64,000 nucleotides of DNA from Eledone cirrhosa (taxonomy: Eukaryota), in NCBI GenBank assembly GCA_964016885.1, contig OZ024743.1, positions 247,628,001 to 247,692,000 of the forward strand, written 5' to 3'. Positions 3,606 through 55,890 of the stretch are shown piece by piece (position 1 is the first letter of the stretch; each line of letters starts with the position of its first letter). The notes under the pieces were generated by a model, which saw nothing but the letters and a program-made list of their open reading frames with translations, did not search any database and was not told where the DNA came from. Made by a program: the position numbers and the translations under genes.

Positions 3606-3681
3606 AACTGTACATTGTAAACCTATTGATCTTAGGCCTTCAGTTTTCATCTGGTATAGGATTTTAATGACTTGTTTGTTT

Positions 3682-3818
3682 GTATGTCTGTGTGTGTATT
3701 TATGAATGTGTGTGTATATGTATGTATGTCTGTGTGTGTATTTATGAATGTGTGTGTATATGTATGTATGTCTGTGTGTGTATTTATGAATGTGTGTGTA
3801 TATGTATGTATGTCTGTG
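3682..3818 (+). repeat. 42-bp tandem repeat (~3.2 copies) built from TG/TA motifs
   Basis: Unit gtatgtctgtgtgtgtatttatgaatgtgtgtgtatatgtat; 14-aa periodicity in overlapping spurious ORFs. Confidence 0.85.
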
Positions 3819-3943
3819 AAAAGTCAAGAGATGGCATTTCTTGAAACTGAGATGTAGCCATTACGTATGTATGTATGTATGTATGTATGTATGTATGTAT
3901 GTATGTATGTATGTATGTATGTATGTATGTATGTATGCATGTA

Positions 3944-21134: not shown

Positions 21135-21860
21135 TGTCAACACGTCTCCCTTCTGACGACTGAAAACAGATAAAATATGGTTTTTTGAAAGCAGATATTT
21201 TATCTGTTTTCAGTCGTCAGAAGGGAGACGTGTTGACAGCGATAAGTATGAGGGTGTGGAGGGAGGGGGAAACAACTTAAATTTAAACATATACACGAGA
21301 TGTGCATATACAAATATATATACATAAATGCACACATACATAGACACACATATATACATGCATAGATACTCATACACACGTATAAAAAAACACACACACA
21401 TATGCATGTGTATATATATATATTTATATACATATATATATACATAAAAATATAAAATAAACATACGTTCACACACACATACACATGCTTGCAAAAATAA
21501 ATATACACATACACAACCACACACATACACACGTATATATAAAAACATGCATACAAACATATTACACACACATCCACATACATACACATAAAGGTCTACA
21601 ATAAAGAGCATAGGTTCATAACCTACGTACATACGTAAACAAATGCGTGCGCGCGCACACGCACGTAATAAAATCAACACACGCATACAAAAATCATACA
21701 TAAATCCACACACACATAATAACCCATATATACAAAAGTATATATACAGCCGCATACACACACACATATACGTAACCACATACATATAACCATATAAATA
21801 AAATAAACATATACAAACACACACACATATATATATACACAAACACATATATATACGTAT

Positions 21861-24771: not shown

Positions 24772-24775
<4 letters not shown>
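23365..24775 (+). mobile_element. CR1-like LINE, 5'-truncated RT with (AAAGTTATC)n tail
   Basis: NQHGF, YLDFSKAFDRVDH, SGVPQGTVLGPLLF, FADD, RPHLEYC; frameshifts; three AAAGTTATC-type units at the 3' end; TA-repeat flanks. Confidence 0.9.
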
Positions 24776-24842
<67 letters not shown>

Positions 24843-25151
24843 CACATATATATATATATACATATATAAACACACACATACATACACACACACACATATA
24901 CACATATATATATATATACATATATAAACACACACATATATATATATATACATACACATACATACAAATACACATATTCATACACACACACATACATACG
25001 TATACATACACATATATATATATACACACACATATATATATATATACATACATATATATATACATATATATACACATATAACCATATACATAAATATACC
25101 CACATACATACATATATAATATACATATATATATATATACATATACACACA

Positions 25152-25244
<93 letters not shown>

Positions 25245-25290
25245 ATACATACAGATACATACATACACACACACATATACACATACATAC

Positions 25291-25334
<44 letters not shown>

Positions 25335-25861
25335 ATATTTGGGGAGGGTCATATTTGCGTAATATTGCCAGAATTAATAACAGAACACACTCACTGTTTG
25401 GTTGGTTTTCGCTTCTCGCTGTCTTTTATATATATATATCTGCGATCTAACTTACTCGGTCCTCAATGTTGCCATTGACTGACCGGCGGTCAAAAATAAT
25501 ACAGATACAATATAGACAAACACATATATATATAGTTTACATAAATCTTTCGTTGCACATCTGCAACATCGTCAGTGGTGTTATATTCATTGTTCCTCCT
25601 GTTGTGTTGTATGTCTACGCCATTTTTTTTTTTTTTTTTGTTCAGTCTGTCTATATATTTATTTATTTATTTGCTTGTTTGTTTATCTTATTTTATTTTG
25701 TCTTCTTTGCGCATGCGTTTGCGTGTGTGTATAGTGTTATGTGTGATGTGTGATGTGTGACTAGTGTGTATAGTGTTGTCTGCTGGGTGACTAGTGTGTG
25801 TTTATGTGCTTGTGTATGTATTTATTTATCTTATTTTATTTAATTTAATTTACTTATTTAT

Positions 25862-27799
25862 TTATACTTCTCTTAGGTCAGTGTTGTTTGTTTGGGTGTT
25901 GTTGTTGTTCCACTCATTCTTTCTGTTTAGCTTTGGTCTTCTAATTTCTATTTCACTGGCCTCTCTGATTTGCCTATCTGCTGGGTCATTCCTATGTTTA
26001 GATATTATTCTAATTTCTATGTTGTCTATGTTACCGTCATGATGTTGTCTAGCATGTTCGTATAGTACTGACCCGTTTTTTCGTCCTTTTAGTTCCCCCC
26101 AGTGTTGGTCTATCCTTTCACCTATGCTACGAGCTGTCTCACCTATGTATGTTGTTGTCGTGTTTCTGCAAGTACCCTCTGTACATCTTATGCTATAGAC
26201 TACGTTTCTAGTTTTACAGTTTATCCGGGGGTTCACCTTACATATGATACATTTCCTATTGGTACAGTGGGTTTTCTTAAAAGGGTAGGTTTTGCTGATC
26301 AGGGATTTTATGGTGGTTCCTGGCTTTTCTACCACCTTTATTTTTAAGTGGGTCTTTCTCAGGGCCTTTCTACACTGGTTAGCTAATTTCCCTCCAGGGG
26401 TGGCGTCCACAAACATGACACTCTGATATCTCTGGTTGTCGTACCATGATGTGGCCTTCCCTATCTTATGTCTAGCCCTATCTAAGCTATTCCATGATTT
26501 GCTCCTGTATAGTGGGCAAATTCCTTTCATGTCCAGTTCTATGAGGGTCTTATACTTTTCCATGGCTCCTTCGTATACTCTGACTCTGTCTCTTTGGTTG
26601 TAGCCAGAGAACTGCATGCGGTTGATGAAGTGTTGGATGTGTCCTTCCATTTCTGTTGGGTCGCACATGCTGGACACATTCTTCATCACTCGTACCAAAT
26701 CTGCGATCAGAATATTAAACTTAGCACTACTGGACATTGCTGAGTTTTTGAGTATCAGGTATTTGGAGGCCATGGGTTTAGCATAGTGTGAGTGGAGAAT
26801 TTGGGCTCTCTCGTCTATAGTGTTAATCCAGAGTTCTGTGTCTAATACAGGTAGTCTATTGTTAGGGTGTTTGGAAGGGAAGTCTATAGTTACAGTTATA
26901 CTCTGGTGTATGGAATTAGCTATCTGCTGGATGCTTTCCATCGTGCTACGTTCTAAATCAAACTTGTTAGTGCTCTCTAGTGGGGGTGTTCTTATAACTA
27001 TATTGATATCGTCTACATAACGAGAGTACATGATGAGGTCTATGGAGCTTTCATTAAGGAGATCTTTAAGTCTCCTTTCCCACCATACCATGAAAAGGTT
27101 GGCAACATCGCCAGCTATGCTGACGCCGATGGCTGCTCCCTCATTTTGGGTGTAGATTTTCTCATTGAACTTAAATATGTGGCCCTTTAGGGTAGTTTTG
27201 ATACTAGCCCCTATTGCATGTGCGACCATTTTTCTTACCTGATCAGTGTTTTGGGGGGTCCGTATAGCTTTGGTCCACCCAATCCACCTTCCTATGGGAG
27301 TCTTTTTAGCCATTGAGGTTATGGTGGGGGGTCTACCTCTTATAGGTCTACTAGGGCAGAAACATCTAAGGTCATGGCTGTCTAGGTAGTCAGTGTCGTA
27401 GGTAAGTCTAAGTAGGAGGCCCAGTTCGTCTGTGTCGACGTCGCAGAACTCCACCTCACTCTCAATGATCATCTCCACACATCTTTTCACAGCAAAATCA
27501 ATGTTAATGGATGGGTACAGTGACACCACATCCATGCTGCCTATTATGCAGTTGGATAGGCTCCTGTTTTTGTTGCACTCACTGATTCTGCTGAGGAGGT
27601 CCTCTGTACTTTCACATACATCTGGGGACATCTTGATTATGGGGCGTATAACCATTGAGAGGAAGTAGGAGATCCTGTAGTTGCTAGCTATATTAGCTCC
27701 GCATACAGGTCTTGTTGGTGGTCCTATTGTCGGGTCGTCGACTGTCTTGTGGTCTTTGCGGAGCCCATACAAGGGTGGTATGCCATTGTTAGACGCCTG
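25862..27799 (-). CDS. PLE RT + GIY-YIG ORF, 5'-truncated but uninterrupted (left arm)
   Basis: LYGLRKDHK, PTRPV, SMDVVSLYPSI, GAAIG..A.LFM, RYVDD, CxxxxCxxC, NVVY..C...YIGET.R...R..H. First ~62 aa of the listed 707-aa ORF are antisense of the right arm. Confidence 0.9.
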   Translation of the reverse strand, partial: QASNNGIPPLYGLRKDHKTVDDPTIGPPTRPVCGANIASNYRISYFLSMVIRPIIKMSPDVCESTEDLLSRISECNKNRSLSNCIIGSMDVVSLYPSINIDFAVKRCVEMIIESEVEFCDVDTDELGLLLRLTYDTDYLDSHDLRCFCPSRPIRGRPPTITSMAKKTPIGRWIGWTKAIRTPQNTDQVRKMVAHAIGASIKTTLKGHIFKFNEKIYTQNEGAAIGVSIAGDVANLFMVWWERRLKDLLNESSIDLIMYSRYVDDINIVIRTPPLESTNKFDLERSTMESIQQIANSIHQSITVTIDFPSKHPNNRLPVLDTELWINTIDERAQILHSHYAKPMASKYLILKNSAMSSSAKFNILIADLVRVMKNVSSMCDPTEMEGHIQHFINRMQFSGYNQRDRVRVYEGAMEKYKTLIELDMKGICPLYRSKSWNSLDRARHKIGKATSWYDNQRYQSVMFVDATPGGKLANQCRKALRKTHLKIKVVEKPGTTIKSLISKTYPFKKTHCTNRKCIICKVNPRINCKTRNVVYSIRCTEGTCRNTTTTYIGETARSIGERIDQHWGELKGRKNGSVLYEHARQHHDGNIDNIEIRIISKHRNDPADRQIREASEIEIRRPKLNRKNEWNNNNTQTNNTDLREV

Positions 27800-27800
27800 A

Positions 27801-29555
27801 TGTGAAAGTACAGAGGACCTCCTCAGCAGAATCAGTGAGTGCAACAAAAACAGGAGCCTATCCAACTGCATAATAGGCAGCATGGATGTGGTGTCACTGT
27901 ACCCATCCATTAACATTGATTTTGCTGTGAAAAGATGTGTGGAGATGATCATTGAGAGTGAGGTGGAGTTCTGCGACGTCGACACAGACGAACTGGGCCT
28001 CCTACTTAGACTTACCTACGACACTGACTACCTAGACAGCCATGACCTTAGATGTTTCTGCCCTAGTAGACCTATAAGAGGTAGACCCCCCACCATAACC
28101 TCAATGGCTAAAAAGACTCCCATAGGAAGGTGGATTGGGTGGACCAAAGCTATACGGACCCCCCAAAACACTGATCAGGTAAGAAAAATGGTCGCACATG
28201 CAATAGGGGCTAGTATCAAAACTACCCTAAAGGGCCACATATTTAAGTTCAATGAGAAAATCTACACCCAAAATGAGGGAGCAGCCATCGGCGTCAGCAT
28301 AGCTGGCGATGTTGCCAACCTTTTCATGGTATGGTGGGAAAGGAGACTTAAAGATCTCCTTAATGAAAGCTCCATAGACCTCATCATGTACTCTCGTTAT
28401 GTAGACGATATCAATATAGTTATAAGAACACCCCCACTAGAGAGCACTAACAAGTTTGATTTAGAACGTAGCACGATGGAAAGCATCCAGCAGATAGCTA
28501 ATTCCATACACCAGAGTATAACTGTAACTATAGACTTCCCTTCCAAACACCCTAACAATAGACTACCTGTATTAGACACAGAACTCTGGATTAACACTAT
28601 AGACGAGAGAGCCCAAATTCTCCACTCACACTATGCTAAACCCATGGCCTCCAAATACCTGATACTCAAAAACTCAGCAATGTCCAGTAGTGCTAAGTTT
28701 AATATTCTGATCGCAGATTTGGTACGAGTGATGAAGAATGTGTCCAGCATGTGCGACCCAACAGAAATGGAAGGACACATCCAACACTTCATCAACCGCA
28801 TGCAGTTCTCTGGCTACAACCAAAGAGACAGAGTCAGAGTATACGAAGGAGCCATGGAAAAGTATAAGACCCTCATAGAACTGGACATGAAAGGAATTTG
28901 CCCACTATACAGGAGCAAATCATGGAATAGCTTAGATAGGGCTAGACATAAGATAGGGAAGGCCACATCATGGTACGACAACCAGAGATATCAGAGTGTC
29001 ATGTTTGTGGACGCCACCCCTGGAGGGAAATTAGCTAACCAGTGTAGAAAGGCCCTGAGAAAGACCCACTTAAAAATAAAGGTGGTAGAAAAGCCAGGAA
29101 CCACCATAAAATCCCTGATCAGCAAAACCTACCCTTTTAAGAAAACCCACTGTACCAATAGGAAATGTATCATATGTAAGGTGAACCCCCGGATAAACTG
29201 TAAAACTAGAAACGTAGTCTATAGCATAAGATGTACAGAGGGTACTTGCAGAAACACGACAACAACATACATAGGTGAGACAGCTCGTAGCATAGGTGAA
29301 AGGATAGACCAACACTGGGGGGAACTAAAAGGACGAAAAAACGGGTCAGTACTATACGAACATGCTAGACAACATCATGACGGTAACATAGACAACATAG
29401 AAATTAGAATAATATCTAAACATAGGAATGACCCAGCAGATAGGCAAATCAGAGAGGCCAGTGAAATAGAAATTAGAAGACCAAAGCTAAACAGAAAGAA
29501 TGAGTGGAACAACAACAACACCCAAACAAACAACACTGACCTAAGAGAAGTATAA
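27801..29555 (+). CDS. PLE RT + GIY-YIG ORF, 5'-truncated but uninterrupted (right arm)
   Basis: Translation identical to the left arm over the listed 557 aa. Confidence 0.9.
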   Translation, partial: CESTEDLLSRISECNKNRSLSNCIIGSMDVVSLYPSINIDFAVKRCVEMIIESEVEFCDVDTDELGLLLRLTYDTDYLDSHDLRCFCPSRPIRGRPPTITSMAKKTPIGRWIGWTKAIRTPQNTDQVRKMVAHAIGASIKTTLKGHIFKFNEKIYTQNEGAAIGVSIAGDVANLFMVWWERRLKDLLNESSIDLIMYSRYVDDINIVIRTPPLESTNKFDLERSTMESIQQIANSIHQSITVTIDFPSKHPNNRLPVLDTELWINTIDERAQILHSHYAKPMASKYLILKNSAMSSSAKFNILIADLVRVMKNVSSMCDPTEMEGHIQHFINRMQFSGYNQRDRVRVYEGAMEKYKTLIELDMKGICPLYRSKSWNSLDRARHKIGKATSWYDNQRYQSVMFVDATPGGKLANQCRKALRKTHLKIKVVEKPGTTIKSLISKTYPFKKTHCTNRKCIICKVNPRINCKTRNVVYSIRCTEGTCRNTTTTYIGETARSIGERIDQHWGELKGRKNGSVLYEHARQHHDGNIDNIEIRIISKHRNDPADRQIREASEIEIRRPKLNRKNEWNNNNTQTNNTDLREV

Positions 29556-29841
29556 ATAAATAAGTAAATTAAATTAAATAAAATAAGATAAATAAATACA
29601 TACACAAGCACATAAACACACACTAGTCACCCAGCAGACAACACTATACACACTAGTCACACATCACACATCACACATAACACTATACACACACGCAAAC
29701 GCATGCGCAAAGAAGACAAAATAAAATAAGATAAACAAACAAGCAAATAAATAAATAAATATATAGACAGACTGAACAAAAAAAAAAAAAAAAATGGCGT
29801 AGACATACAACACAACAGGAGGAACAATGAATATAACACCA

Positions 29842-29885
29842 CTGACGATGTTGCAGATGTGCAACGAAAGATTTATGTAAACTAT
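29842..29885 (+). ncRNA. Hammerhead-ribozyme-like motif in PLE pseudo-LTR
   Basis: CTGACGA-t-gttgca-gatg-tgcaac-GAAA; core mirrored at 25548-25575 (-), homolog 31528-31555; stem I not convincingly formed. Confidence 0.6.
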
Positions 29886-30128
29886 ATATATATGTGTTTG
29901 TCTATATTGTATCTGTATTATTTTTGACCGCCGGTCAGTCAATGGCAACATTGAGGACCGAGTAAGTTAGATCGCAGATATATATATATAAAAGACAGCG
30001 AGAAGCGAAAACCAACCAAACAGTGAGTGTGTTCTGTTATTAATTCTGGCAATATTACGCAAATATGACCCTCCCCAAATATAACAATATCTGTTTCGAC
30101 ACACGATTTCATATAAAAAACCTCGCAA

Positions 30129-30208
<80 letters not shown>

Positions 30209-30302
30209 ACATACATACATATATACATATACACACATATACACATATATACAAACACATATATATACATATATACACACATATATATAAATACACACAC
30301 AT

Positions 30303-30375
<73 letters not shown>

Positions 30376-30379
<4 letters not shown>

Positions 30380-31748
30380 TTTTGCGAGGTTTTTTATATG
30401 AAATCGTGTGTTGAAACAAATATTGTTATACTTGGGAAGGGTCATATTTGTGTAATAATATTGTAATATTGCCAGAATGGAAAGACACATCCAGCACTTC
30501 ATCAACCGCATGCAGTTCTCTGGCTACACCCAAAGAGACAGAATCAGAGTATACGAAAGAGCCACGGAGAAGTATAAGACCCTCATAGAACTGGACATGA
30601 AAGGAATTTGCCCATTATACAGGAGCAAATCATGGAATAGCTTAGATAGGACTAGACATAAGACAGGGAAAGCCACCTCATGGTACGCCAACCAGAGATA
30701 CCAGAGTGTCATGTTTGTGGACGCTACCCCTGGAGGGAAATTAGCTAACCAGTGTAGAAAGGCCCTGAGAAAGACCCACTTAAAGATCAAGGTAGTAGAA
30801 AAGCCAGGAACCACCATAAAATCCCTGATCAGCAAAACCTACCCTTTTAAGAAAACCCACTGTACCAATAGAAAATGTATCATATGTAAAGTAAACCCCC
30901 GGATAAACTGTAAAACTAGAAACGTAGTCTATAGCATAAGATGTACAGAGGGTACTTGCAGAAACATGACAACAACATACATAGGCGAGACAGCTCGTAA
31001 CATAGGTGAAAGGATAGACCAACACTGGGGGAACTAAAAGGACGAAAAAACGGTTCAGTACTATACGAACATGCCAGACAACAACACGACGGTAACATAG
31101 ACAACATAGAAATTAGAATAATATCTAAACATAGAAATGACCCAGCAGAGGCCAGCAAAATAGAACTTAGAAGGCCAAGGCTAAACAGAAAAAAATGAAT
31201 GGAATAACAACAACACCCAAACAAACTGATCTAAGAGAACAACACTGACCTAAGAGAAGTATAAATAAATAAATAAATAAATACACACACAAGCACAATA
31301 ACAACAAACACATATAAACACACACTAGTAAACTAAGATAGAATACAATAACCAATACACAGTCACCCAAACAAGAACACACATAAAAAAAAACACTATA
31401 CACACACGCAAACGCATGCTCAGAGAAGACAAAACATAAATAAATAAACAAATAAATAAATAAATAAACAGACTAAATAAAGATGGCGTAGGCATACAAT
31501 GCAACGGGAGGAAACATAACAGCACCACTGACGATGTTGCAGATGTGCAACGAAAGAATAGACTATATATATGTGTTTGTGTCTATATTGTATCTGTATC
31601 TTTGACCGTTGGTCAGTCAATGGTTACATTGGGGACTGAGTAAATTAAATTAACCGATATAAAAGACACAGAAGCGAAAACCAACCAAACAGTGAGTGTG
31701 TTCTGTTATTAATTCTGGCAATATTATTACACAAATATGACCCTCCCC
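30376..31748 (+). mobile_element. Second copy of the same PLE family, 5'-truncated, with ~100-bp inverted 3' end
   Basis: ORF 30477-31037 closely resembles the C-terminal third of 27882-29555; frameshift near 31030; 30376-30478 is the reverse complement of the element 3' end including the tail. Confidence 0.9.
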
Positions 31749-32099
31749 ATATATATATATATATATATACACACATAAACATGCCCAAATGCAGGTACAT
31801 GTGTACGCACGTACACACAGCGATATGCATACAAACGAACGGCCACTCATACAAATACATTCAAACATGTACTCATAAATATACACATATACACAGGCTC
31901 ATAAAAACAGCTCTACAAGCAGAAAATGCAGTTAGGTAAGAGGTACTTACATAACCATAGTTCCGTGTTTCAGGTTGAGGAGGGGTAGGGGTGGGGTGGG
32001 AAGGAGGTAGAGGGGCTATTTTGTCGGCTGGCGTTTAAAAAAAAAAAAGGTGGAAGCCGTTTTTAGCCATCGGGCATTAACACTGGCTTAAGGCATTTA

Positions 32100-33620
32100 A
32101 AAGTTGCAAAGATTTTGTGCATGCAGTTCGGGTAGTGTTCAGAGAGTTTGTTCAGTAGCGGGCCCTTAATTTAATAAAATTTCGTAGCTCTCTGAGATAC
32201 AAAGATCGCAGCACTTGTGTCCTCCGTTGTATGAGCGCGCTTTCTGGAGTATTTTCCATTTAAGCGTGAAGGGGGTGGAGTTCCTTTTGAGGTCCCAAAC
32301 ATAGGAGGCGAGGGTTGTCTGGTTTGATTTGTCCGGTCTTCTGTAGGAGTGGGTATGGGCATACCACCGGGTCTTAAAGTTATTGGAAGCCATGCCAATG
32401 TAAGTCTTTTTGTTGTTGCAATCATCGGTGCCTGAGATGACATCGCATTTGTATACGATATCATTTGTCAGGCATTTGTTTTCAAGTGGGCAGGCTTCCT
32501 TATTTAGGCAATTACATAAGGCCCCAGTTTGGGGACCGGGTTCGGAGGTGGTTGGCTTATTTAATTTTTTAGAATTGTGATTGGCTATATTCCTAGCTAG
32601 GCTAGGTGTGGTGGAGTAGGAGAGTCTTATTGTGTTCTTATTAAAGATGGTGTAGTATCTATGTTGTATGGGGAAGTGTGTGTTCAGCAAAGTGAAGAAA
32701 TTCCTAGCTATAGGTGTAGAGACCTCTCTATTGAAGGGAGGGTTGTACCAGCTAATCTGCCTATGCCTATTCCTCCTATGCAGTCTTGCGGTGGTTTCTA
32801 GGTAGGTTATCTTTTCTTTAAATCCGCTGCGGTCGAGGGCGTCGTTGTGGTAGGAGGCAGAGGCGTTAAAAATATCTTCATTGGCAGAGAGGCCAGAGAT
32901 TCTAATAGAGACGCTTTTTACTAAGTTATCAGTGATGTTTTTGGGGTGGTTAGAATTAACATTAATATATCTAAGGGACTCATTTGGTTTGTGGTACGGG
33001 TAATAGAGGGAAGTATCTAGGTCGAGAGTGACATCTAAAAAGTTGGCCCTAGTCATATTAGATTCTATAGTTATACTAAATCCTAGATTACGGAAGAACG
33101 AGCTTAAGTTTCTCCGAAACCCATCGGTGGTTCTGGGGTTAACCTTGTGCAGGTCGAAGAGGCCGTCGTTTCAGTATAAACCTCCGGTTAGGCCAGTAAA
33201 GAGGTTCTTCAGGTGGCGTAAAATGTACCGGCCCACAAGGTCGCTAATTTCAGCCGAGTCACTCGCTCCCATGCTGACGTCAAATGGGGTCTGAGACTTC
33301 TTGTTGATCCAGTAAGATCCATCATGGTATAGGAAGGTCTTACGGGCATGGAGGATAACATCTTGCTCAGCATCGGTTATGGTGGTAAAATTTCTGGCAA
33401 AGGTAATTGCGTCCTTCAGGAGGGGCTCCGAGAAAGAAGCATAGTAGTTTTCTATGTCGAGTTGCAGGAAGCGAGTGTGGCGTTTGTCGGGTAATTCTTG
33501 GAACCAAGATATTGCCTCAGATGTTCTGCTCCAGAGTGGGAGTGGTGAGGCAGCCCGCAATGATAGTAGAACTCTATCTAGGATCTTCTTACTGATAGAG
33601 CCGATGTCCGAACGAGTGGG
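32100..33620 (-). pseudogene. PLE of the YRDD-type lineage (RT + GIY-YIG), inactivated
   Basis: FLQLDIENYY, FDVSMGASDSAEISDLVG, GLY*NDGL, NFLDVTLDL, HP, CNC..CPL..C..IVY, YIGM, CDLC. Confidence 0.9.
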
Positions 33621-33758
33621 GTGTATGTGTTTATGTATTTTGTATATGTGTATATATATGTGTGTATATATGTGTATATATGTGTATGTAGATGTGTTTG
33701 TATATATGTGTATATTTATATGTATGTATGTTTGTATATATGTATGTATATGTATGTG

Positions 33759-35550: not shown

Positions 35551-36319
35551 GTATATATATATATATATCGTTTCTGAATTTGTTTAGCAAGATTCTTTAT
35601 CTGAAATCGTGTGTTGAAACCGATATTGTTATACTTTGGGAGGGTCATGTTGCCAATAAGAAACACACGCACCAGTTGCTTTCACTTCAATTTATTATAA
35701 TAAATTTATAAATTTATAAATTTCTGGTTGGTTGGTTGGTTCCACAACCAGATAGTTGTTTATATATTGTCATAATTCTTTCGTCACACACTCTGTGACC
35801 TCTTCAGTGACTGGGGATTCTTTTCTTTGTTTCTGTGCCTCTCCTTTGTTCTGTCCTACGCCATTGTCCTACGTAGTGTAGGAGAACGGATAAATGAACA
35901 CTGGCGAGACCTTCAAGATAGTAAAGAATCATCTGTACTCTACCAACATGCTAAAATAGAACACAAGGGTAAATTAGAGAACATAGAAATAAAAATAGAA
36001 TCTACACACAGAAAAGACGCAATGTTTAGACAAATTACAGAGGCAATAAACATAAAAGAATTACAACCAAAATTAAATAGAAAATATGAGTGGAACAGCA
36101 ACATCACAACTTACAATTAAGGACAAAATGAAAACACACACACACATAGAACAAACAACCAACCAGTAACATGTAAATAAACAAATAAATAAATGAACAT
36201 AAACACACAGACACCCGGATGTGGCGCATGCGCAGACTGAGCACACAACACACACACAGAAACAAAATGGCGTAGGACAGAACAAAGGAGAGGCACAGAA
36301 ACAAAGAAAGGAATCCCCA

Positions 36320-36362
36320 GTCACTGAAGAGGTCACAGAGTGTGTGACGAAAGAACTATGAC
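36320..36362 (+). ncRNA. Minimal type-I hammerhead ribozyme motif
   Basis: gtca-CTGAAGA-g-gtcaca-gagtg-tgtgac-GAAA-gaac-TA-tgac: stem I gtca/tgac, 6-bp stem II; mirror copy 35769-35811 (-). Confidence 0.7.
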
Positions 36363-36430
36363 AATATATAAACAACTATCTGGTTGTGGAACCAACCAAC
36401 CAACCAGAAATTTATAAATTTATAAATTTA

Positions 36431-37136
36431 CTAGCAGTAAAGCCCGGCGTTGCTCGGGGTCGCTCAGTAGCTGTGTTAAAGTTACAATGTTAAGTTTCTT
36501 TTTTGGCTTAAAGTCTGTCTGCACGACTGTCTGTCTGCACGACTGTCTGTCTGCACGACTGTCTGTCTGCACGACTGTCTGTCTGCACGCCTAACAAAAT
36601 TTACAGATACATATATTTTAAATAAACTTATATAATTTTTGCTTTTTTTTACGAAATATTTGCTTGTTTTACGTAGTCTTTAAATAGACTTGTTTTCAAG
36701 TAAAAATATTGTTTTAAAAGGCTTTTAAATGGAAATGAAGCAAAACGGAAGCTTAGTGTTCGAACTGATGAATTTTGCAGGTCAAAATTTTGCTGGCTCG
36801 ACAACTGTTCGTGTATTGTGTTAATGTCATTTTAAACGCTGAGAAAGCCAGCGTAATTTTTTTAATTTTTGCACGCAGAAAATGTAAACAACGTAAGACG
36901 CTCAATGTAAACAGAACAAAGGGAAATAACTCGCCACTTACGCTCAAAAATCGATACATTAGATTCGATTTCGTCACATAGGGTGGGTCAATTTGAAATA
37001 TTTTTTTTCCGATGTCTTCGCTAGGGCTCAATGTACAAGTATAGCAATTTCGGTGCAATTCCGTCAGAGATTCTAAGAGGAGATGTGTGCCAAAAATCGA
37101 TAGACAGACAGACAACCACAGCTTTATATATATAGA
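36431..37136 (-). mobile_element. Non-autonomous Helitron
   Basis: 5' TCTATATATA, 3' hairpin cccgagcaacgccggg then CTAG, between A and T; absent from the mirror arm; contains a 16-bp tandem repeat (ctgtctgtctgcacga) at ~36515-36589. Confidence 0.8.
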
Positions 37137-37801
37137 TTATAAATTTATTATAATAAATTGAAGTGAAAGCAACTGGTGCGTGTGTTTCTTATTGGCAGCA
37201 TGACCCTCCCAAAGTATAACAATATATATATATATATATATATGTATATAAAATATTAAAAAAATAATGAATAAAACAATGAAACAGTTCCTTATATTAA
37301 ACAAAAAAGTTCATTATTTAACGATCGTTTCTAGGACATATATGTGTTAGAATTGGTATGCATATTCAAGAGATCTATGTACAAAATTATACAAATTATC
37401 AAATATAATATACATACCAACACATACATATGCCGTCTTCAGAAATAATGAAATATATTTATTGATAATAACAACAATTCAAAATTACAGGTCTGTTTGG
37501 GAACAGAGTTCAAATTGACCAATGAAATACACAAAAATATATCAAGAAAATACAGTTAGGTGTGTGTATATATGTAAGTAACTTCGTTCACAGATATGCA
37601 TAAAAATATATGTTCACATGCATACGCATGTCGAAAAAATGTATGTAAATACAAAAATTCAGGGCTAATGTCTCTGTATGTTTATAATCTACAGATAAAA
37701 TACACACGCATATAAACATATATAGATTCATATATACACACATATATATACACATTCACACACACACGCGCATATACACATAAACATATACATACCTACG
37801 A

Positions 37802-37875
<74 letters not shown>

Positions 37876-38138
37876 GTATATATTATTATTATAACTATAT
37901 GGATATTTAGGCGCACACATAAACACTGCCACATATATTTTTACATCCAGATGCAGAAGTGGGTAAGGGGGTCAGTAATTACTAAGGGTGTCAGAGAACT
38001 GCCTATTTATAAAATGTATCTATAAATTTAGAAATAAAAAGAAATATATTAAAAAAAAAAAAAAAAGTATAAACAAGTAAAATATATACTCATACATAAA
38101 ATACACACCGATATACATATATATATATATATACATAT

Positions 38139-38205
<67 letters not shown>

Positions 38206-38449
38206 CATATATACACACATACATACATACATACATAGAGACACATACATATACATATATAAATACATAGACACACATACAAACACACATATATATATAC
38301 ATATATTCACAACACACATACATATATACACATATATGTACACACACATACACACACATATATATATACATATATATACATACAGACACATATATATACA
38401 CACATATATATACACACATATATACATACATATATACATACACACACAC

Positions 38450-38486
<37 letters not shown>

Positions 38487-38602
38487 TACATATACGTATA
38501 TATACACACACATACACATATCCATGTATGTATATACACATACAACCACACACTCACACAACTCAGACATACATAAATAAAGAGATATACATACACACAT
38601 AT

Positions 38603-38681
<79 letters not shown>

Positions 38682-38692
38682 CATACACATAA

Positions 38693-38723
<31 letters not shown>

Positions 38724-38737
38724 TATATACATACACT

Positions 38738-38799
<62 letters not shown>

Positions 38800-39009
38800 C
38801 ACACATATATATAAGTATATATAAAAGAAATAAATAAAGAAATAAATACACAGTCAGACAATTATGCACACATATATATATATGTACATACACACATCTC
38901 TACAAATATATATACACACATACACACGCACACATACATATATACATACACACATACATATACATAGACATATATATACACACATATATATACATATACA
39001 TACATATAT

Positions 39010-39056
<47 letters not shown>

Positions 39057-39612
39057 CATAGACACTTATTTACATGCGCACATATGTATTTTTATACTCA
39101 CATATAAACACCCAAACATACATACCTACTTACATACACATACATTCATCCACGCTTACAAATACAAATAATTATAGGGGGGGGGGGATTAAAATTATTA
39201 GTGGGAAATAGTAAATATAGGTTTCAAGGAACATAGAATATTAATCTGCATTTAGATCATAATATATGTTTACATAGTAGTTTCAGTATTAGGAAATGTA
39301 AGAAAGAAGGCAAAATTATGCATTTTAATATAAGTAGACTATTAATTAAAGGTTAACTAAATTAAAATTAGTTAATATATTGATTTCTAAGGTGTATACT
39401 ACTTAGGTTTATAATATTTGAAGCGGAATTTTGAAGTTAAACAGTAGTAGAGTATTAATTATATCATAACTAAATTAAAATATTAACATTATGGTATCAA
39501 TATTAGGAAATGAATTTAGTAATAGGGAAAACCAAATCAAGTATTTCATGGGTAGTAGAATATAAATTATAGGTTAACTAAATTAAAAATTATATATATA
39601 CTTATTGAATTT

Positions 39613-41727: not shown

Positions 41728-42366
41728 TTTAATTTTTGTTAACCTATAATTATATTCTACTATAGATAAAATACAAAATCTGCTTTAATTATTATAAACC
41801 TAATTAACATATACTATAGAAATTAATATATAATTTTTAATTTAGTTAACCTATAATTTATATTCTACTACCCATGAAATACTTGATTTGGTTTTCCCTA
41901 TTACTAAATTCATTTCCTAATATTGATACCATAATGTTAATATTTTAATTTAGTTATGATATAATTAATACTCTACTACTGTTTAACTTCAAAATTCCGC
42001 TTCAAATATTATAAACCTAAGTAGTATACACCTTAGAAATCAATATATTAACTAATTTTAATTTAGTTAACCTTTAATTAATAGTCTACTTATATTAAAA
42101 TGCATAATTTTGCCTTCTTTCTTACATTTCCTAATACTGAAACTACTATGTAAACATATATTATGATCTAAATGCAGATTAATATTCTATGTTCCTTGAA
42201 ACCTATATTTACTATTTCCCACTAATAATTTTAATCCCCCCCCCCCTATAATTATTTGTATTTGTAAGCGTGGATGAATGTATGTGTATGTAAGTAGGTA
42301 TGTATGTTTGGGTGTTTATATGTGAGTATAAAAATACATATGTGCGCATGTAAATAAGTGTCTATG

Positions 42367-42417
<51 letters not shown>

Positions 42418-42615
42418 ATATATGTATGTATATGTATATATATGTGTGTATATATATGTCTATGTATATGTATGTGTGTATGTATATATGTATGTGTGCG
42501 TGTGTATGTGTGTATATATATTTGTAGAGATGTGTGTATGTACATATATATATATGTGTGCATAATTGTCTGACTGTGTGTATTTATTTCTTTATTTCTT
42601 TTATATATACTTATA

Positions 42616-42675
<60 letters not shown>

Positions 42676-42727
42676 AGTGTATGTATATATGTGTGTGTGT
42701 GTGTGTATATATATATTTATGTGTATG

Positions 42728-42772
<45 letters not shown>

Positions 42773-42886
42773 ATGTGTGTGTGTATATCTCTTTATTTAT
42801 GTATGTCTGAGTTGTGTGAGCGTGTGGTTGTATGTGTATATACATACATGGATATGTGTATGTGTGTGTATATATACGTATATGTA

Positions 42887-42923
<37 letters not shown>

Positions 42924-43413
42924 GTATATATGTGTGTATATATATGTGTCTGTATGTATATATATGTATATATATATGTGTGTGTATGTGTGTGTACATA
43001 TATGTGTATATATGTATGTGTGTTGTGAATATATGTATATATATATGTGTGTTTGTATGTGTGTCTATGTATTTATATATGTATATGTATGTGTCTCTAT
43101 GTATGTATGTATGTATGTGTGTATATATGTATGTGTATATATATATATATATATATGTGTATATGTATATATATGTATATCGGTGTGTATTTTATGTATG
43201 AGTATATATTTTACTTGTTTATACTTTTTTTTTTTTTTAATATATTTCTTTTTATTTCTAAATTTATAGATACATTTTATAAATAGGCAGTTCTCTGACA
43301 CCCTTAGTAATTACTGACCCCCTTACCCACTTCTGCATCTGGATGTAAAAATATATGTGACAGTGTTTATGTGTGCGCCTAAATATCCATATAGTTATAA
43401 TAATAATATATAC

Positions 43414-43489
<76 letters not shown>

Positions 43490-43854
43490 TCGTAGGTATG
43501 TATATGTTTATGTGTATATGTTTATGTGTATATGCGCGTGTGTGTGTGAATGTGTATATATATGTGTGTATATATGAATCTATATATGTTTATATGCGTA
43601 TGTGTATTTTATCTGTAGATTATAAACATACAGAGACATTAGCCCTGAATTGTTGTATTTACATACATTTTTTCGACATGCGTATGCATGTGAACATATA
43701 TTTTTATGCATATCTGTGAACGAAGTTACTTACATATATACACACACCTAACTGTATTTTCTTGATATATTTTTGTGTATTTCATTGGTCAATTTGAACT
43801 CTGTTCCCAAACAGACCTGTAATTTTGAATTGTTGTTATTATCAATAAATATAT

Positions 43855-44007
43855 TTCATTATTTCTGAAGACGGCATATGTATGTGTTGGTATGTATATT
43901 ATATTTGATAATTTGTATAATTTTGTATAATTTTTTACATAGATCTCTTGAATATGCATACCAATTCTAACACATATATGTCTTAGAAACGATCGTTAAA
44001 TAATGAA
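43855..44007 (+). ncRNA. Type-I hammerhead ribozyme with expanded stem II
   Basis: ttcattattt-CTGAAGA-[114 nt]-GAAA-CGATCG-TT-aaataatgaa; perfect 10-bp stem I; mirror at 37310-37452 (-). Confidence 0.75.
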
Positions 44008-44201
44008 CTTTTTTTGTTTAATATAAGGAACTGTTTCATTGTTTTATTCATTATTTTTTTAATATTTTATCTTGACTCTGTATTCCGTTTATCTTTCACC
44101 GAAAGTGATTTTTGAATGCATCTCTTCTTTCCATGATATCCGGATTACATTGAGTTCTTCATACGGATTGGACACTACCGTAATCTCTTGGTAGATTTAT
44201 C

Positions 44202-49606: not shown

Positions 49607-50149
49607 GGAAGTTACAATTATTATTTCTAAGTCACTTCTTTCCTGAGCAATGTCAGATTCTATTGTTACTATATGTATGTATGTATGTACAAAGGGCAGA
49701 GGAACTCATAAGAGTCAATGGCCACCCGAAAGTGTGTAAATATGTATATACACATGTACCGCGCGGTTAAACCACTGGAGTGAAGGACCCCTAGCCTTTG
49801 TCAGGGCATTCTTCTAGGAGAAGGCAACTCAGGAAACTGGGATAACTCCGATATAAAACCTGTGGCTCAGTAGTTACCGATGATGTTGATCTTTTCTTCT
49901 TTTCGGGTTATAGCTACTGTCGCTCAGAGGGTGGGATTGGCTCAGTGCACAGTCTTTCCTCACTTTAAAAAATATCTTCACGCACAGGCATTGCACGATA
50001 GAATTAATTAATAATTATTAATAATGGTATATCATGCAATGGCCATACTCGCTAACGATGGAGCAGCCATCATGTATGTATGTATGTATGTATGTATGTA
50101 TGTATGTATGTATGTATGTATGTATGTATGTATGTATGTATGTATGTAT

Positions 50150-53100
50150 CTCTTTCTCTTAATTTCGAGTACATTTTTTTTGACCGGCCACCTTCCTGGT
50201 GGCAAGGTTGTAAAAGAAAAGAAATTGTCATCCCTTGAATCGCAAGAATGTTTTGCAAATTTTGAAGGTGCCAGCTATCGCAGCCATTTGTAGACTATGA
50301 ATTAGGGAGCTACGCTTTTTGTCCGCAAATCCAAGTTCAGTCATACTTTGGTCCAAGCGGGTTGGTATATAACCCGTAGCTCCAATAATGATGGGTATGA
50401 AGCTAAAGGTGTATCTTGGATACTGGATTTGTAAACTCCTCATCAATGGTCCGTAGATGTCCTTCTGTATTTTTCTGACAACGTTTACACCAAGTGGGCA
50501 GCTGATCTCCACAACAGAACACGTTTTCAATGTGTGGTCTCAAACAACAATATCAGGCCGGTTGTGCTTTAATTTGGTGGCAGTTTTTATTTTCAGGTTC
50601 CACCAGTATTCTTTAGTGCCATCTGTCTCAATATATTCTTCCTCGTTTGTTAATTTTGTTTTCCGAAGTGCGTTCCAGATGGTTCTAGCTATCCCATCGT
50701 GTCTCATGGGGAGGTAGTAGCGAGATGACATTCTTTCGCAGCTGGCTTACATCCTCAATCTTTGTTTTACATAGCCTACATTTATTGTCAGCTGCTGGCC
50801 CTTCTCTTTTGTGCAGCAGATATTTGGTAGGGAGTTCTTGTTTCTGTATTGCATAGAGATATCCCTCAAGGTGTGATGTCATAAACTTGTCGGAACTCCA
50901 TGCCAGGCTTTTTGAGTGGTTTATCCCCTCTATGGTCTGTGTTTTACGCCTCAAGTATCCATGCACAACTTTTTCTGTAAATTGGTCAATTTTTTAATCT
51001 TGTTTGAACATTGAATAGGATCTTCCGATTTCTCTGGGTGAGAGATTTATATCAGGCTTTATTCCATATCTCTCCTCCAGATCAGTCGCTATTCTAATGA
51101 TATTTTTTTTTCATGCTCATAAACCTGGGCAAGATGGTTGCCAACCTTTTTCTCTGTTGAAGGTGTTGCTTCAGTGTTACTATCCGGGTCTCATATGTTG
51201 TTAATATTGATTTTAGACCCCGGCCACCTTCCTTGCGTGAGAAGTATAGCCTATCCACATCACCATTGATGTTAAAGTTCCCAGTAACACTGAGAAGTTT
51301 TCGAGTTCTAACATCCATCTCACTTAGTTCTTGCAATGACCAGTTCAGCAGGCCAAATGTTGGCGTTAGAATTGGCACAGCATAAGTATTGTGGGCAATG
51401 TATTTGTTGTATGCTGACAGTTCTGATGACCATATTTTCTTTACTCTTCTGAGGTATTCAGTTCTGGTTCTCTCCTTATTTATGGGTCCATCATATCTGA
51501 CATTCTCATCCTGTCCAAGATATCTGTAGTTGTCACCTGACTGCAGAGGTTGTATTGTCAGGCCGTTCATCTCTAGATTTCTAGAGGAGGGCACAACTCT
51601 TCCACGTTTTACTGCCAAATATGCACACTTGAACTCACCAAATTTCATTTTGATGTCGGTTGAAAATTGTGTAATGAGGTCCAATTGTTTCTTGATGTCA
51701 TTGATATTTGGCCCATACAACTTCAGGTCATCAACAAAGAAAAGATGGGAGATACTTCTGGGCCCACTTCTTTGTCCACCTTGTTTCCTGAGTAGGTAAG
51801 ATAGTGGATTCAGTGAGAGAACGAAGAGTAGCACTGAAAAGCTATCACCCTGAAAGATGCCCTTCTGGTAATGTATCTTATCAGTCTTAACTTGCTCCTT
51901 CTCACCTCTAAGGATCAAATTGGTGTACCAGTTCTTGGTCAGGCGTTCAACAGCAGCTACCAATGGTTGTGGGACTTTAGCTAACTGTAAAGCCTTAATA
52001 ATCCACCCATGAGGTACACTATAAAATGCTTTTTGATAGCCCAGCCACACCACAGTCATGTTTCTGCGATTCTTTGTTGTTTTTTCCTGAATCATTTTGT
52101 TAGTTAGTAGGTGATCTATACAACCCCACACCTCCCTCTTTCCACCAGCTTGCTCAGGTGTTATGATGTTGGTTGCACAGTGATCCTGTAAGAACAGGTT
52201 AAGGCACCCAGTATATAATTTATACATATATGTTTTGGCAGGCTATTGGGCGGTAATTTTTAGCAAATGTGGTTTGGCTATTTTGGGGAATGAGGAGATT
52301 AGTGGCATTTGATAACCATCTGGGCAGTTCTTGTGTGCCTTTAATGGTTTCTGTAAACAGCCGTATGAGATCTTGCCGATAGAAAGTGAAATTCTTCAAC
52401 CAGTATCCTGTAATGAGGTCTGGGCCTGGCGATTTCCTATTCGACATTTTCTGTAGAGTTGTTTCCAGTATTGACCCATCTATGTCATATTGTTTTGTCT
52501 GGACATGTTGGCAGTAGTCCTGTTCCAGTTCTTTTAGCCAATTAGCTTGTCTGTTGAATCCGTCATCCGTTTCCCATACAGATCTCCAGTAGCTCTCAAC
52601 CCGTTCTTTTGAAGTGGTGTCGTTTACAGGGACTGAGCTTTTGCCACCGAAGCTGCGATAAACTGATTAGGGTCTCTGGCAAACAATCTATTTAGCACTT
52701 GTTGTTTATGTGCTGTTGACTTATATTTTAGTCTTTCTGTTGTAGCTGTGAGTTGTTGTTTCAACTGGTGTAATTTGGAGTTCAAAGTTTTAAATTTTGT
52801 ATCTCCAAATCGTCTCTCTAACTTTTTCTTTAGGTTTTCCTGGTGTCGTGTGAAGTTGCTCTCTATGTTGCATTTCATAACGACTGCGATGTGTGAGATA
52901 CTTCGTCTCAGGGACAACATTTTGGTTTTTAAATTTCGCATCCACGCTGGTTCAGGCTTTCTGTTTGTATCTTGATTGCGTGGTTTTAGATTTGTGTTAT
53001 ATGATAGCAATGTGACAGCTGAAACATATAACAAAACATTAAGCGTTTCAAATGTCGTTTCTACACCTTTAGATCGTATAGCCTTCAGATAATTGCCAGC

Positions 53101-54218
53101 TATTTCGTTTACCGCTTCCAATTCCAATTTAGTGGGTTCTTTACTGATTCTGGTGTTGTATGGTCTGTCACTCTGATTAAGGCTGTGTATCTCTTGAAAC
53201 ATATCGTTCCATATCACTTGTAGGGTGTCCACAAGTTTTTGGTGCTCTGTTTGTTCAGTAGACTCCTGAATTTCAGCCCCGTTGTTGATATGGTGACAAT
53301 TACTACTAGAGTTAGCTGACCTTTCTCGCTGTTCTTCAGTGGAAGTGGGATGGATTTCAGCAAAATTGTTGGTGAGCTGTTCACTGTTAGATTTAGCTGG
53401 CCATTCTCTTTGTCTGTCAGTGGAGGTGGGGTGGTTGTCTACAAGGGCTGTATTTGTAGTATCACTCAATTCCGTTAGATGTATCAATTTACATCTAATG
53501 ATACGTTTTGCCTGTTCATTTAAATGCTTTGGAGAAAAGTCTAATTCTGGGTGTTTGGAGTTCCATAAAGTTTTTAGCCTTTGCATAAAACCGAACTTTT
53601 GGGGTTCAGATTGTTTATATGCTTCATATAATACTTTATTAAGCTCGTAGCTCCACTGTGTACAGCGGTTGTAGTTGCGATTTGGTCGAAGGAGACTTGT
53701 ACTTTTTGCCATGATGAGTTCGTCTATTCACTAATATTTCGTATTTATTTTTCAAAATAGTCGATGATCTTCTTTAAAAGTTACGACAAAGTTCTGTAAG
53801 AATCAAATTTAAAGTTATTCACAGCTTGGGTAATATTTCTTTTCAGTTAGTTTTTAATTCTACAACTGTGTTTTAAACGTTGTTCTTGAATCGTTTGAAT
53901 CGAGAACAAAAAGAACCGTTACTTAGTATATTTCTTTATGAATGTAATATAATATAACAACGCTGTATTTATATGTTAAAGTTTATGTATCATTCATATA
54001 AATAGGTGTTGTACAACTTATTCACAGTTCAAACACTTATGTTTTTGTTTCTGAATCGAAAACGTTACTTGTATATTTCAAACACTTATGTAGAATTATT
54101 GTATGTAATCTTACCGCGTAATGTAGCTCAACTTTTTCCAATATATGGTATGTTGCCTTCATGTAAGCCGTAATTACACACGTCCGATTATCGGACACTG
54201 ACCACAACGGTCGCCATT
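50150..54218 (-). mobile_element. R4/Dong-clade RLE retrotransposon, apparently full length, frameshifted
   Basis: ORF start 53712; KSPGPD, NYRPIAC, GIFQGDS.S.LLF, HLFFVDDLKLY, CRLC, RHD, RPDIVV..EI; flanked both sides by (ACAT)n. Confidence 0.9.
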
Positions 54219-54240
54219 ATGTATGTATGTATGTATGTAT

Positions 54241-55888
54241 CTCTTTCTCTTAATTTCGAGTATATTTTTTTGACCGGCCACCTTCCTGGTGGCAAGGTTG
54301 TAAAAGAAAAGAAATTGTCATCCCTTGAATATCAAGAATGTTTTGCAAATTTTGAAGGTGCCAGCTATCGCAGCCATTTGTAGACTATGAATTAGGGAGC
54401 TGTGCTTTTTGTCCGCAAATCCAAGTTCAGTCATACTTTGGTCCAAGCGGGTTGGTATATAACCCGTAGCTCCAATAATTATGGGTATGAAGCTAAAGGT
54501 GTATCTTGGATACAGGATTTGTAAACTCCTCATCAATGGTCCGTAGATGTCCTCCTTCTCCTGTATTTTTTCTGACAACGTTTACATCAAGTGGGCAGCT
54601 GATTTCCACAACAGAACACGTTTTCAATGTGTGGTCCCAAACAACAATATCAGGCCGGTTGTGCTTTAATTTGGTGGCAGTTTTTATTTTCAGGTTCCAC
54701 CAGTATTCCATAGTGCCATCTGTCTCAATATATTCTTCCTCGTTTGTTGTTAATTTTGTTTTCCGAAGTGCGCTCCAGATGGTTCTAGCTATCCCATCGT
54801 GTCTCATGGGGAGGTAGTAGCGAGATGACATTCTTTCGCAGCTGGCAACAATGTGGCTTACATCCTCGATCTTTGTTTTACATAGCCTACATTTATTGTC
54901 AGCTGCTGGCCCTTCTCTTTTGTGCAGCAGATATTTGGTAGGGAGTTCTTGTTTCTGTATTGCATAGAGATATCCCTCAAGGTGTGATGTCATAAACTTG
55001 TCGGAACTCCATGCCAGGCTTTTTGAGTGGTTTATCCCCTCTATGGTCTGTGTTTTACGCCTCAAGTATCCATGCACAACTTTTTCTGTAAATTGGTCAA
55101 TTTTTTAATCTTGTTTGAACATTGAATAGGATCTTCCGATTTCTCTGGGTGAGAGATTTATATCAGGCTTTATTCCATATCTCTCCTCCAGATCAGTCGC
55201 TATTCTAATGATATTTTTTTTTCATGCTCATAAACCTGGGCAAGATGGTTGCCAACCTTTTTCTCTGTTGAAGGTGTTGCTTCAGTGTTACTATCCGGGT
55301 CTCATATGTTGTTAATATTGATTTTAGACCCCGGCCACCTTCCTTGCGTGAGAAGTATAGCCTATCCACATCACCATTGATGTTAAAGTTCCCAGTAACA
55401 CTGAGAAGTTTTCGAGTTCTAACATCCATCCCACTTAGTTCTTGCAATGACCAGTTCAGCAGGCCAAATGTTGGCGTTAGAATTGGCACAGCATAAGTAT
55501 TGTGGGCAATGTATTTGTTGTATGCTGACAGTTCTGATGACCATATTTTCTTTACTCTTCTGAGGTATTCAGTTCTGGTTCTCTCCTTATTTATGGGTCC
55601 ATCATATCTGACATTCTCATCCTGTCCAAGATATCTGTAGTTGTCACCTGACTGCAGAGGTTGTATTGTCAGGCCGTTCATCTCTAGATTTCTAGAGGAG
55701 GGCACAGCTCTTCCACGTTTTACTGCCAAATATGCACACTTGAACTCACCAAATTTCATTTTGATGTCGGTTGAAAATTGTGTAATGAGGTCCAATTGTT
55801 TCTTGATGTCATTGATATTTGGCCCATACAACTTCAGGTCATCAACAAAGAAAAGATGGGAGATACTTCTGGGCCCACTTCTTTGTCC
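54241..55888 (-). mobile_element. Second R4/Dong copy, 5'-truncated, in tandem
   Basis: Near-identical to 50150-51778; intact CRLCKTKIEDVSHIVASC (CCHC); separated from copy 1 by ~22 bp (ACAT)n. Confidence 0.92.
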
Positions 55889-55890
55889 CC

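What the first reader, a model, noticed from the sequence alone, without database searches (positions are those of the whole stretch)
25327..30131. Apparently perfect 2.29-kb palindrome of a PLE with two open RT-GIY-YIG frames
All mirrored ORFs are identical and coordinates sum to 55417 from outer to inner end, so there is no net indel over 2291 bp, even across poly-A and TA runs. The 182-bp spacer is simply more upstream coding sequence of the left arm. This implies a very recent single event from a probably active family, or ongoing arm-to-arm conversion. The minus frame also stays open across the junction.
Basis: seen in the sequence. Interest (0 to 1): 0.75.

Follow-up and report, generated by a model that had tools for sequence, protein, structure and literature searches.

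The report
One RNA, two primers: Penelope palindrome
This perfect 2.3-kb mirror repeat is one young insertion of a very abundant Penelope-like jumping gene that routinely lands as two back-to-back partial copies, a layout already described; related copies show that both halves come from one template, likely one RNA copied twice from the two cut DNA ends.

Summary
Observation confirmed: the arms 25327-27617 and 27800-30090 match at 2291 of 2291 bases. The 182-bp spacer is upstream element sequence, and the right arm carries a 41-bp extra tail. It is not special. The element is a Neptune-like PLE (4.1-kb unit, intact 1210-aa copies elsewhere, about 1,900 short and 1,860 long exact end motifs). 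Of 60 held-out long-tail ends, 53 have an inverted partner, and 4 of 20 long pairs are letter-perfect. Both frames lack the N-terminal 565/626 residues, and the open frame across the junction is common (8 of 69 arms). Conversion is not needed, because older pairs diverge. Head-to-head copies with a one-sided tail are published. What the family adds: 106 of 108 resolved pairs join one arm ending at ORF +26 to one ending at +69/+84. The short-tail arm usually reaches further (47 vs 20), which argues against simple fold-back. One insertion shares 19 A>G changes in both arms and nowhere else in the genome. Best model: both target ends prime on one RNA at staggered sites, and the cDNAs are then end-joined. 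This scan noted the same pattern before on other DNA. No read spanning the junction was found or available.

The parts
25327..27799 (-). Left copy: 5'-truncated PLE (unit nt 1696 to 3' end) with the SHORT 3' end at ORF +26; includes the spacer
25327..27617 (-). Left arm of the perfect inverted repeat (2291 bp)
27618..27799 (-). 182-bp spacer = extra upstream coding sequence of the left copy (LYGLRKDHK, TRPVCG)
27799..27800 (.). Blunt head-to-head junction, 0 nt microhomology and no insert
27800..30090 (+). Right arm of the perfect inverted repeat (unit nt 1878 to ORF +26)
30091..30133 (+). One-sided tail: right copy has the LONG 3' end at ORF +69 (last two bases shared with the TA run)
25862..27799 (-). 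Truncated RT-thumb-linker-EN frame, aa 566-1210 of the family ORF
   Evidence: (RVT_1 E 1.3e-4, below curated cutoff)
27801..29555 (+). Truncated RT-EN frame, aa 627-1210
27800..28015 (-). 72 stop-free antisense codons extending the left frame across the junction (chance)
29842..29875 (+). Minimal hammerhead-like core in the pseudo-LTR (CUGACGA, extra U, 6-bp stem II, GAAA, palindromic GAUU, UA); helix I only 2 bp; mirror at 25542-25575
   Evidence: read from sequence against features in PMC4209133; no Rfam hit; activity untested
30065..30067 (+). Start codon of the family ORF inside the pseudo-LTR/tail, used as +1; mirror at 25350-25352
24773..25326 (.). TA/CA microsatellite target, left flank
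30134..30376 (.). TA/CA microsatellite target, right flank (differs from the left flank)
30377..31769 (.). Older insertion of the same family (86-94% identity) with the same layout: short minus arm with long end (+71), long plus arm with a short end

Best explanation
The palindrome is a single, very young, non-autonomous insertion of an abundant (TA)n-targeting Penelope-like element whose normal product is two 5'-truncated copies joined head to head; it likely forms when both cut strands of the target prime reverse transcription on one RNA molecule at two fixed, staggered sites and the two cDNAs are then likely joined by end-joining repair. Shown here: the structure; the fixed 3' ends at ORF +26 versus +69/+84; one of each per insertion; a shared template for the two arms; and microhomology or short inserts at the junctions. 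Inferred: the GIY-YIG domain cuts both strands of (TA)n. One 3'-OH primes at +26 (leading RT) and the other at +69/+84 (trailing RT). The trailing RT either stalls where the leading cDNA sits, giving very short long-tail arms, or displaces it and copies on, giving long identical arms as here. The two free cDNA ends are joined, each serving as primer for the other's second strand. The arms are perfect because they are two fresh copies of one template, and the spacer is the extra distance that one RT travelled. The insertion itself would make no full-length protein and is likely inert, apart from predicted hairpin RNA if it is read through.
For: Strict pairing: 33 of 34 divergent end pairs from exact-pattern lists on C1 0-181 Mb are short+long (p=4e-9 against 50:50). 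All 60 fully resolved junctions of 67 parsed are short+long (partly the same loci; of the 7 unresolved, L069 proved long+long). In the held-out set 46 of 47 resolved partners are short. Genome-wide exact counts are 1896 short vs 786+1072 long. The +26 site is a fixed site, not a microhomology landing: two alternative TA-like sites gave only 3 and 2 ends, and several solo copies end at +26 with the 5' end joined straight to TA. The short-tail arm reaches further 5' in 47 vs 20 of 81 end-anchored pairs (14 ties; p=0.001), and long-tail arms stop within 75 nt in 15 vs 4 of 81 (p=0.013). Shared template: in young pairs 74 lineage substitutions are shared vs 10 discordant, and a length marker is shared in 22 of 22 pairs (14.3 expected). 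L165 shares 19 A>G changes within 65 nt in the sense strand of both arms, and that stretch occurs exactly twice in the 3-Gb assembly, once per arm. Junctions: microhomology of at least 2 nt in 44 of 68 insert-free junctions (14% expected), and inserts in 38 of 106. In vitro, a Poseidon PLE cuts and extends both strands from two RT start sites that bound the tail and is predicted to be a dimer (PMC11167929).
Against: All of it is inference from genomic scars. The L165 editing marker shows one template but cannot by itself separate two RT passes from fold-back copying (its long-tail arm is the longer one); only one extra A>G in the short arm hints at separate passes. Apart from L165 there is no A>G excess among shared private changes (1 of 21 in young pairs). 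Near-symmetric junctions are enriched (14 of 81 within 15 bp vs 2.9 expected), which fold-back also predicts. Two pairs are long+long (L069, L164). Very short short-tail arms are harder to detect than short long-tail arms, which may inflate the 15 vs 4 contrast. PMC11167929 saw no difference in start site between strands in vitro. The focal junction has no microhomology and was not seen in reads.
Confidence: 0.62

Rival explanations
1. Fold-back/self-priming: one cDNA from the long site folds back and copies itself, ending at +26; later central deletions create the spacer (self-priming was proposed in PMC3846280).
For: Explains identical arms, one tail per insertion, the L165 shared edits and the excess of near-symmetric junctions.
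Against: Without deletion, the long-tail arm must always be the longer one, but the short-tail arm reaches further in 47 vs 20 pairs, including this locus, and sometimes by several kb (L054: 3888 vs 192). Solo copies ending at +26 exist. A better TA microhomology site, the (AT)6 run, is almost never used (3 vs 1896).
Confidence: 0.13
2. Two primers, but two RNA molecules from the same source locus, held by a dimer that assigns a different start site to each subunit.
For: Explains strict short+long pairing, shared lineage alleles, and arm-specific poly-A lengths in 9 of 25 pairs. A dimer is predicted for PAc.
Against: Two independent RNAs would not share 19 editing-type A>G sites unique to one insertion. 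It does not predict long-tail arms stopping near +26.
Confidence: 0.15
3. Ongoing arm-to-arm gene conversion keeps an older palindrome perfect.
For: 21 private substitutions are shared by both arms in 42 young pairs; some may be conversion.
Against: The focal arms equal the family majority at every substitution site in the overlap, and their 1750-bp coding part is letter-identical in 3 other loci, so there is nothing to convert. Arm-private changes (50) outnumber shared private ones (21), and old pairs diverge.
Confidence: 0.05
4. Assembly or polishing artefact from chimeric fold-back reads.
For: No listed contig from 6 public runs spanned the junction. Polishing could hide a few arm differences.
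Against: The flanks do not mirror each other. The two ends fall exactly on the family's two different fixed ends. Over 100 other loci show the same layout with distinct junctions and age-graded arm divergence.
Confidence: 0.05

Closest known systems
Typical insertion unit of endonuclease-positive Penelope-like elements: inverted 5'-truncated copy, partial tandems, 30-40-bp tail often at one end (PMC8557442 passages; PMC3846280 main text)
   Same: Head-to-head inverted truncated copy, one-sided tail, pseudo-LTR that includes the ORF start, tandem units in other copies, (TA)n target, Asn-rich insert in the ORF.
   Different: Three fixed ends (+26, +69, +84; tails of 43 and 58 nt); the tail is not optional but nearly obligatory on exactly one arm (106 of 108 resolved pairs); both arms here are long and letter-identical.
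Neptune (or Nematis) clade PLEs
   Same: C-terminal EN, CX4CX2C linker before the EN, two Cys between the GIY-like (VVY) and YIG motifs plus two His, TA targeting.
   Different: No tree was built against named references, so Neptune vs Nematis is not settled; DKG reads DKS; about 150-aa Asn-rich block at aa 250-400.
PAc (Poseidon, Anolis) in vitro mechanism (PMC11167929, parts 1-2 of 4)
   Same: RT start sites inside the ORF start that bound the tail; both strands cut and extended; AT-rich target.
   Different: That work saw no strand difference in start site and did not address inverted products; here each insertion uses one short and one long site, and all three sites share 2-4 nt with (TA)n.
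LINE-1 twin priming (recalled from memory, not read here)
   Same: Two target primers on one RNA, inversion joined by microhomology.
   Different: L1 products are non-overlapping; here the arms overlap for up to several kb, which would need strand displacement or a second pass, and the start sites are fixed.

Membership tests
EN+ Penelope-like element | Single long ORF with RT followed by C-terminal GIY-YIG EN | tested here: met
   1210-aa ORF in natural copy L053. RVT_1 E 1.3e-4 on the truncated frames, below the curated cutoff; no Pfam hit for the full ORF or for the EN alone. Atlas top cluster 0.97 with HTH_animal 100%, RVT_1 40%, GIY-YIG 28%. EN assigned by motifs VVY..YIG..R..H..E and a weak pairwise match to a Pfam GIY-YIG-positive frame (E 0.023).
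EN+ Penelope-like element | CCHH motif with two Cys between GIY and YIG | tested here: met
   VVYSIRC-TEGT-C ... YIGET ... H ... HARQHH read from the translation; definition from PMC8557442.
EN+ Penelope-like element | Pseudo-LTRs / partial tandems including the ORF start | tested here: met
   Tandem 4.13-4.15-kb units in L042/43, L053, L056, L065/66, L082, L086/87.
EN+ Penelope-like element | Inverted 5'-truncated copy and one-sided tail | tested here: met
EN+ Penelope-like element | Hammerhead motif in the pseudo-LTR | tested here: inconclusive
   Core boxes, extra nucleotide, G-C closing pair and palindromic loop 3 present and conserved in 106+ copies, but helix I is only 2 bp and Rfam gives no hit.
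EN+ Penelope-like element | RT groups with PLE/telomerase RTs in a tree | not tested
   No named reference set was fetched.
EN+ Penelope-like element | Target-site duplication | tested here: inconclusive
   Not discernible inside TA microsatellite, as noted for TA-targeting PLEs.
Neptune/Nematis | CX2-5CxxC linker between RT and EN | tested here: met
   CTNRKCIIC at aa 1077.
Neptune/Nematis | Clade placement by RT phylogeny | not tested
   No tree built.
Penelope/Poseidon | No Cys linker | tested here: not met
   Linker present.
Naiad/Chlamys | N-terminal EN | tested here: not met
   EN motifs at aa 1098-1182, after the RT.
Hydra | CCHH absent, CxCX5C linker, DKT | tested here: not met
   CCHH present, CX4CX2C linker, DKS.

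The most novel reading that the evidence does not exclude
PLE integration is obligate two-ended priming on a single RNA. Both strands of the cut target start RT at two different fixed sites 43-58 nt apart, the trailing RT collides with or displaces the leading cDNA, and the two cDNAs are end-joined. The one-sided tail and the head-to-head repeat are then one phenomenon, and ADAR-edited insertions such as L165 are single-molecule records of it.
Probability: 0.55. Interest if true: 0.6.

Novelty: new member of a known kind. Interest (0 to 1): 0.38.

Why it matters
The locus itself is ordinary. How PLEs make their tandem/inverted structures is stated as open in PMC8557442. This young, abundant family gives counts that discriminate between models: obligatory short+long pairing, which arm reaches further, and an editing-marked template shared by both arms. 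These translate directly into a barcoded-RNA assay in the published in vitro system. Practically, thousands of fresh long inverted repeats in one genome are predicted sources of dsRNA and of assembly trouble, and such palindromes should not be read as conversion-maintained or as artefacts.

Tried and rejected
Junction in public runs: Logan contigs of X1, X2, X4, X5 and X2, X3, X5, X6 showed only the normal colinear element in the listed rows. Many rows were not shown, contigs drop rare variants, and the runs may be other individuals, so this is no evidence either way. No RNA holder was listed. Genome DNA searches with 3'-UTR and RT-core fragments returned nothing, because common words are skipped. 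A two-ORF frameshift seen in the tandem at L065/66 was rejected as a family trait, since other copies have one intact ORF. A peak of 5' ends at the predicted hammerhead cut (about unit nt 3941) was not seen; the visible hotspot is the poly-A tract (18 ends in 3840-3859). A general A>G excess among shared private changes was not found outside L165. Rfam gave only microsatellite-driven miRNA hits below threshold. PDB sequence search gave only weak RT matches. One apparent long+long pair (L070) was two adjacent short+long insertions. Literature searches listed no paper proposing one-RNA two-primer formation of PLE palindromes; most subscription papers and the supplements of PMC11167929 (Fig. S2) and PMC8557442 were not seen and may bear on this. 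Empty allele and spanning long reads could not be tested.
Full report
Observation. The mirror is exact: 2291 of 2291 positions pair for the sum 55417, from 25327/30090 to 27617/27800. The spacer is colinear element sequence, the junction is blunt, and the right copy has 41-43 extra 3' bases. Both outer ends run into TA microsatellite, and the flanks differ. The frames are open but cover only aa 566-1210 and 627-1210 of the family ORF. The antisense read-through of 72 codons is matched or beaten by 8 of 69 arms examined.

The family. The window lies in a 3.0-Gb assembly. An RT fragment had 1194 candidates, of which 40 were scored and nearly all were 97-100% identical. Natural copies show a 4130-bp unit with a 1210-aa ORF, intact in L042, L053, L057 and L067. 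The unit has a DKS motif, RT motifs, a CX4CX2C linker, a CCHH-type EN, an Asn-rich block and a hammerhead-like core 223 nt before the ATG. Profile support is weak for Pfam but strong in the Atlas. By the features in PMC8557442 (passages) it is a Neptune/Nematis-type EN+ PLE; no tree was built.

The palindrome is the default product. I parsed 38 stretches chosen by RT match (biased to young, long copies), 60 chosen by end patterns and 60 held-out stretches anchored on long ends. In the held-out set, 53 of 60 have an inverted partner (46 short, 1 long, 5 interrupted, 1 beyond the stretch), and 7 are solo or unresolved. Four of 20 pairs with at least 1 kb overlap are letter-perfect, including this one. 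The published descriptions already call the inverted truncated copy and the one-sided tail typical (PMC8557442 passages; PMC3846280 parts 1-4 of 5).

Fixed, paired ends. 3' ends fall at ORF +26 (a few at +19 to +25), +69 or +84. Exact patterns give 1896, 786 and 1072 matches (lower bounds), and two control sites with equal or better TA homology give 3 and 2. On C1 up to 181 Mb, 33 of 34 divergent pairs are short+long. All 60 fully resolved junctions of 67 are short+long (overlapping), and L069 is a true long+long exception. With the held-out set this makes 106 of 108 resolved pairs.

Which arm is longer. Among 81 end-anchored pairs, the short-tail arm reaches further in 47, the long-tail arm in 20, with 14 ties. 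Long-tail arms are 75 nt or shorter in 15 vs 4, many stopping between +14 and +58. Near-symmetric junctions are enriched (14 vs 2.9 expected). A fold-back copy cannot be longer than its template or add a tail, so fold-back needs large later deletions in most insertions, this one included. Junctions show microhomology of at least 2 nt in 44 of 68 insert-free cases (null 14%) and inserts in 38 of 106. Reading this as polymerase-theta-type joining is recalled knowledge and inference.

One template. In 42 young pairs, the arms share 74 lineage substitutions against 10 discordant, and 21 private ones against 50 arm-specific. Length markers agree within pairs beyond permutation (22 of 22; 35 of 36; poly-A 16 of 25). 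Following a lead from an earlier scan note, I looked for A>G. There is no general excess, but L165 shares 19 A>G changes in 65 nt in both arms, and the stretch occurs only in those two arms genome-wide. This fits one hyper-edited RNA copied into both arms. It does not by itself exclude fold-back.

Conversion and artefact. The focal arms equal the family majority in their overlap, and their coding part is letter-identical in 3 other loci. Older pairs diverge. Youth therefore explains the perfection. An artefact is unlikely, given non-mirrored flanks and ends at two different family sites, but no spanning read was available.

Mechanism. Most likely both cut strands of (TA)n prime on one RNA at staggered sites, and the cDNAs are joined head to head (0.62). 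This agrees with PAc cutting and extending both strands from two start sites (PMC11167929, parts 1-2 of 4). The rivals are two RNAs from one source (0.15), fold-back plus deletion (0.13), conversion (0.05) and artefact (0.05). Circular or multimeric templates for tandem copies are proposed in PMC4209133 (parts 1-2 of 4), and the private frameshift shared by three tandem units in L065/66 fits that. Part 1 of 5 of bioRxiv 10.64898/2026.07.22.740005 was read and added nothing on inversions. My reading was formed before I consulted earlier scan notes; they report the same layout and model in this and other genomes and are not independent support.

Verdict. Real, known kind, ordinary as a locus; moderately useful as quantitative evidence on an open mechanism. 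Interest 0.38.

Noticed in passing
L165 (G000:C1:199771927-199777110), unit nt 3621-3685: 19 clustered sense-strand A>G changes shared by both arms (20 in one arm), unique in the genome: a hyper-edited RNA fixed as DNA by retrotransposition.
   Followed up: yes
L065/L066 (G000:C1:14380729-14400728): Three tandem units share one private frameshift absent from other full-length copies, which fits repeated copying of one (circular or multimeric) template.
   Followed up: partly
one search runs for window:26900-28500: The RT stretch is held at high word share in runs of three coded organisms (0.93, 0.86, 0.82) and at 0.2-0.35 in five more; close relatives or horizontal transfer, not resolved.
   Followed up: no
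L053 ORF aa 250-400: Asn-rich block (about 50% N) upstream of the RT, a position different from the inserts described in Adineta PLEs.
   Followed up: no
window 30377-31769 and 35578-36433: Two older relatives with the same head-to-head layout beside the focal insertion.
   Followed up: partly
window 37248-39597 vs 41826-44070: Large inverted repeat (89%, with a 545-bp stretch at 100%) that includes microsatellites; no match to this PLE's ORF; origin not worked out.
   Followed up: no
window 32166-33758 (minus): Fragments of a different retroelement with a weak Pfam GIY-YIG hit (E 0.006), probably another PLE family.
   Followed up: no
window 50127-51785 and 54218-55894; 58133-59799 vs 62275-63966; 21135-21238: A 97.6% direct duplication within LINE-like coding sequence; two oppositely oriented LINE-like copies at 75%; a 104-bp hairpin.
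   Followed up: no
L069, L031, L163: A short interspersed repeat of about 190 bp inserted into PLE arms, with a 14-bp duplication in L069.
   Followed up: no
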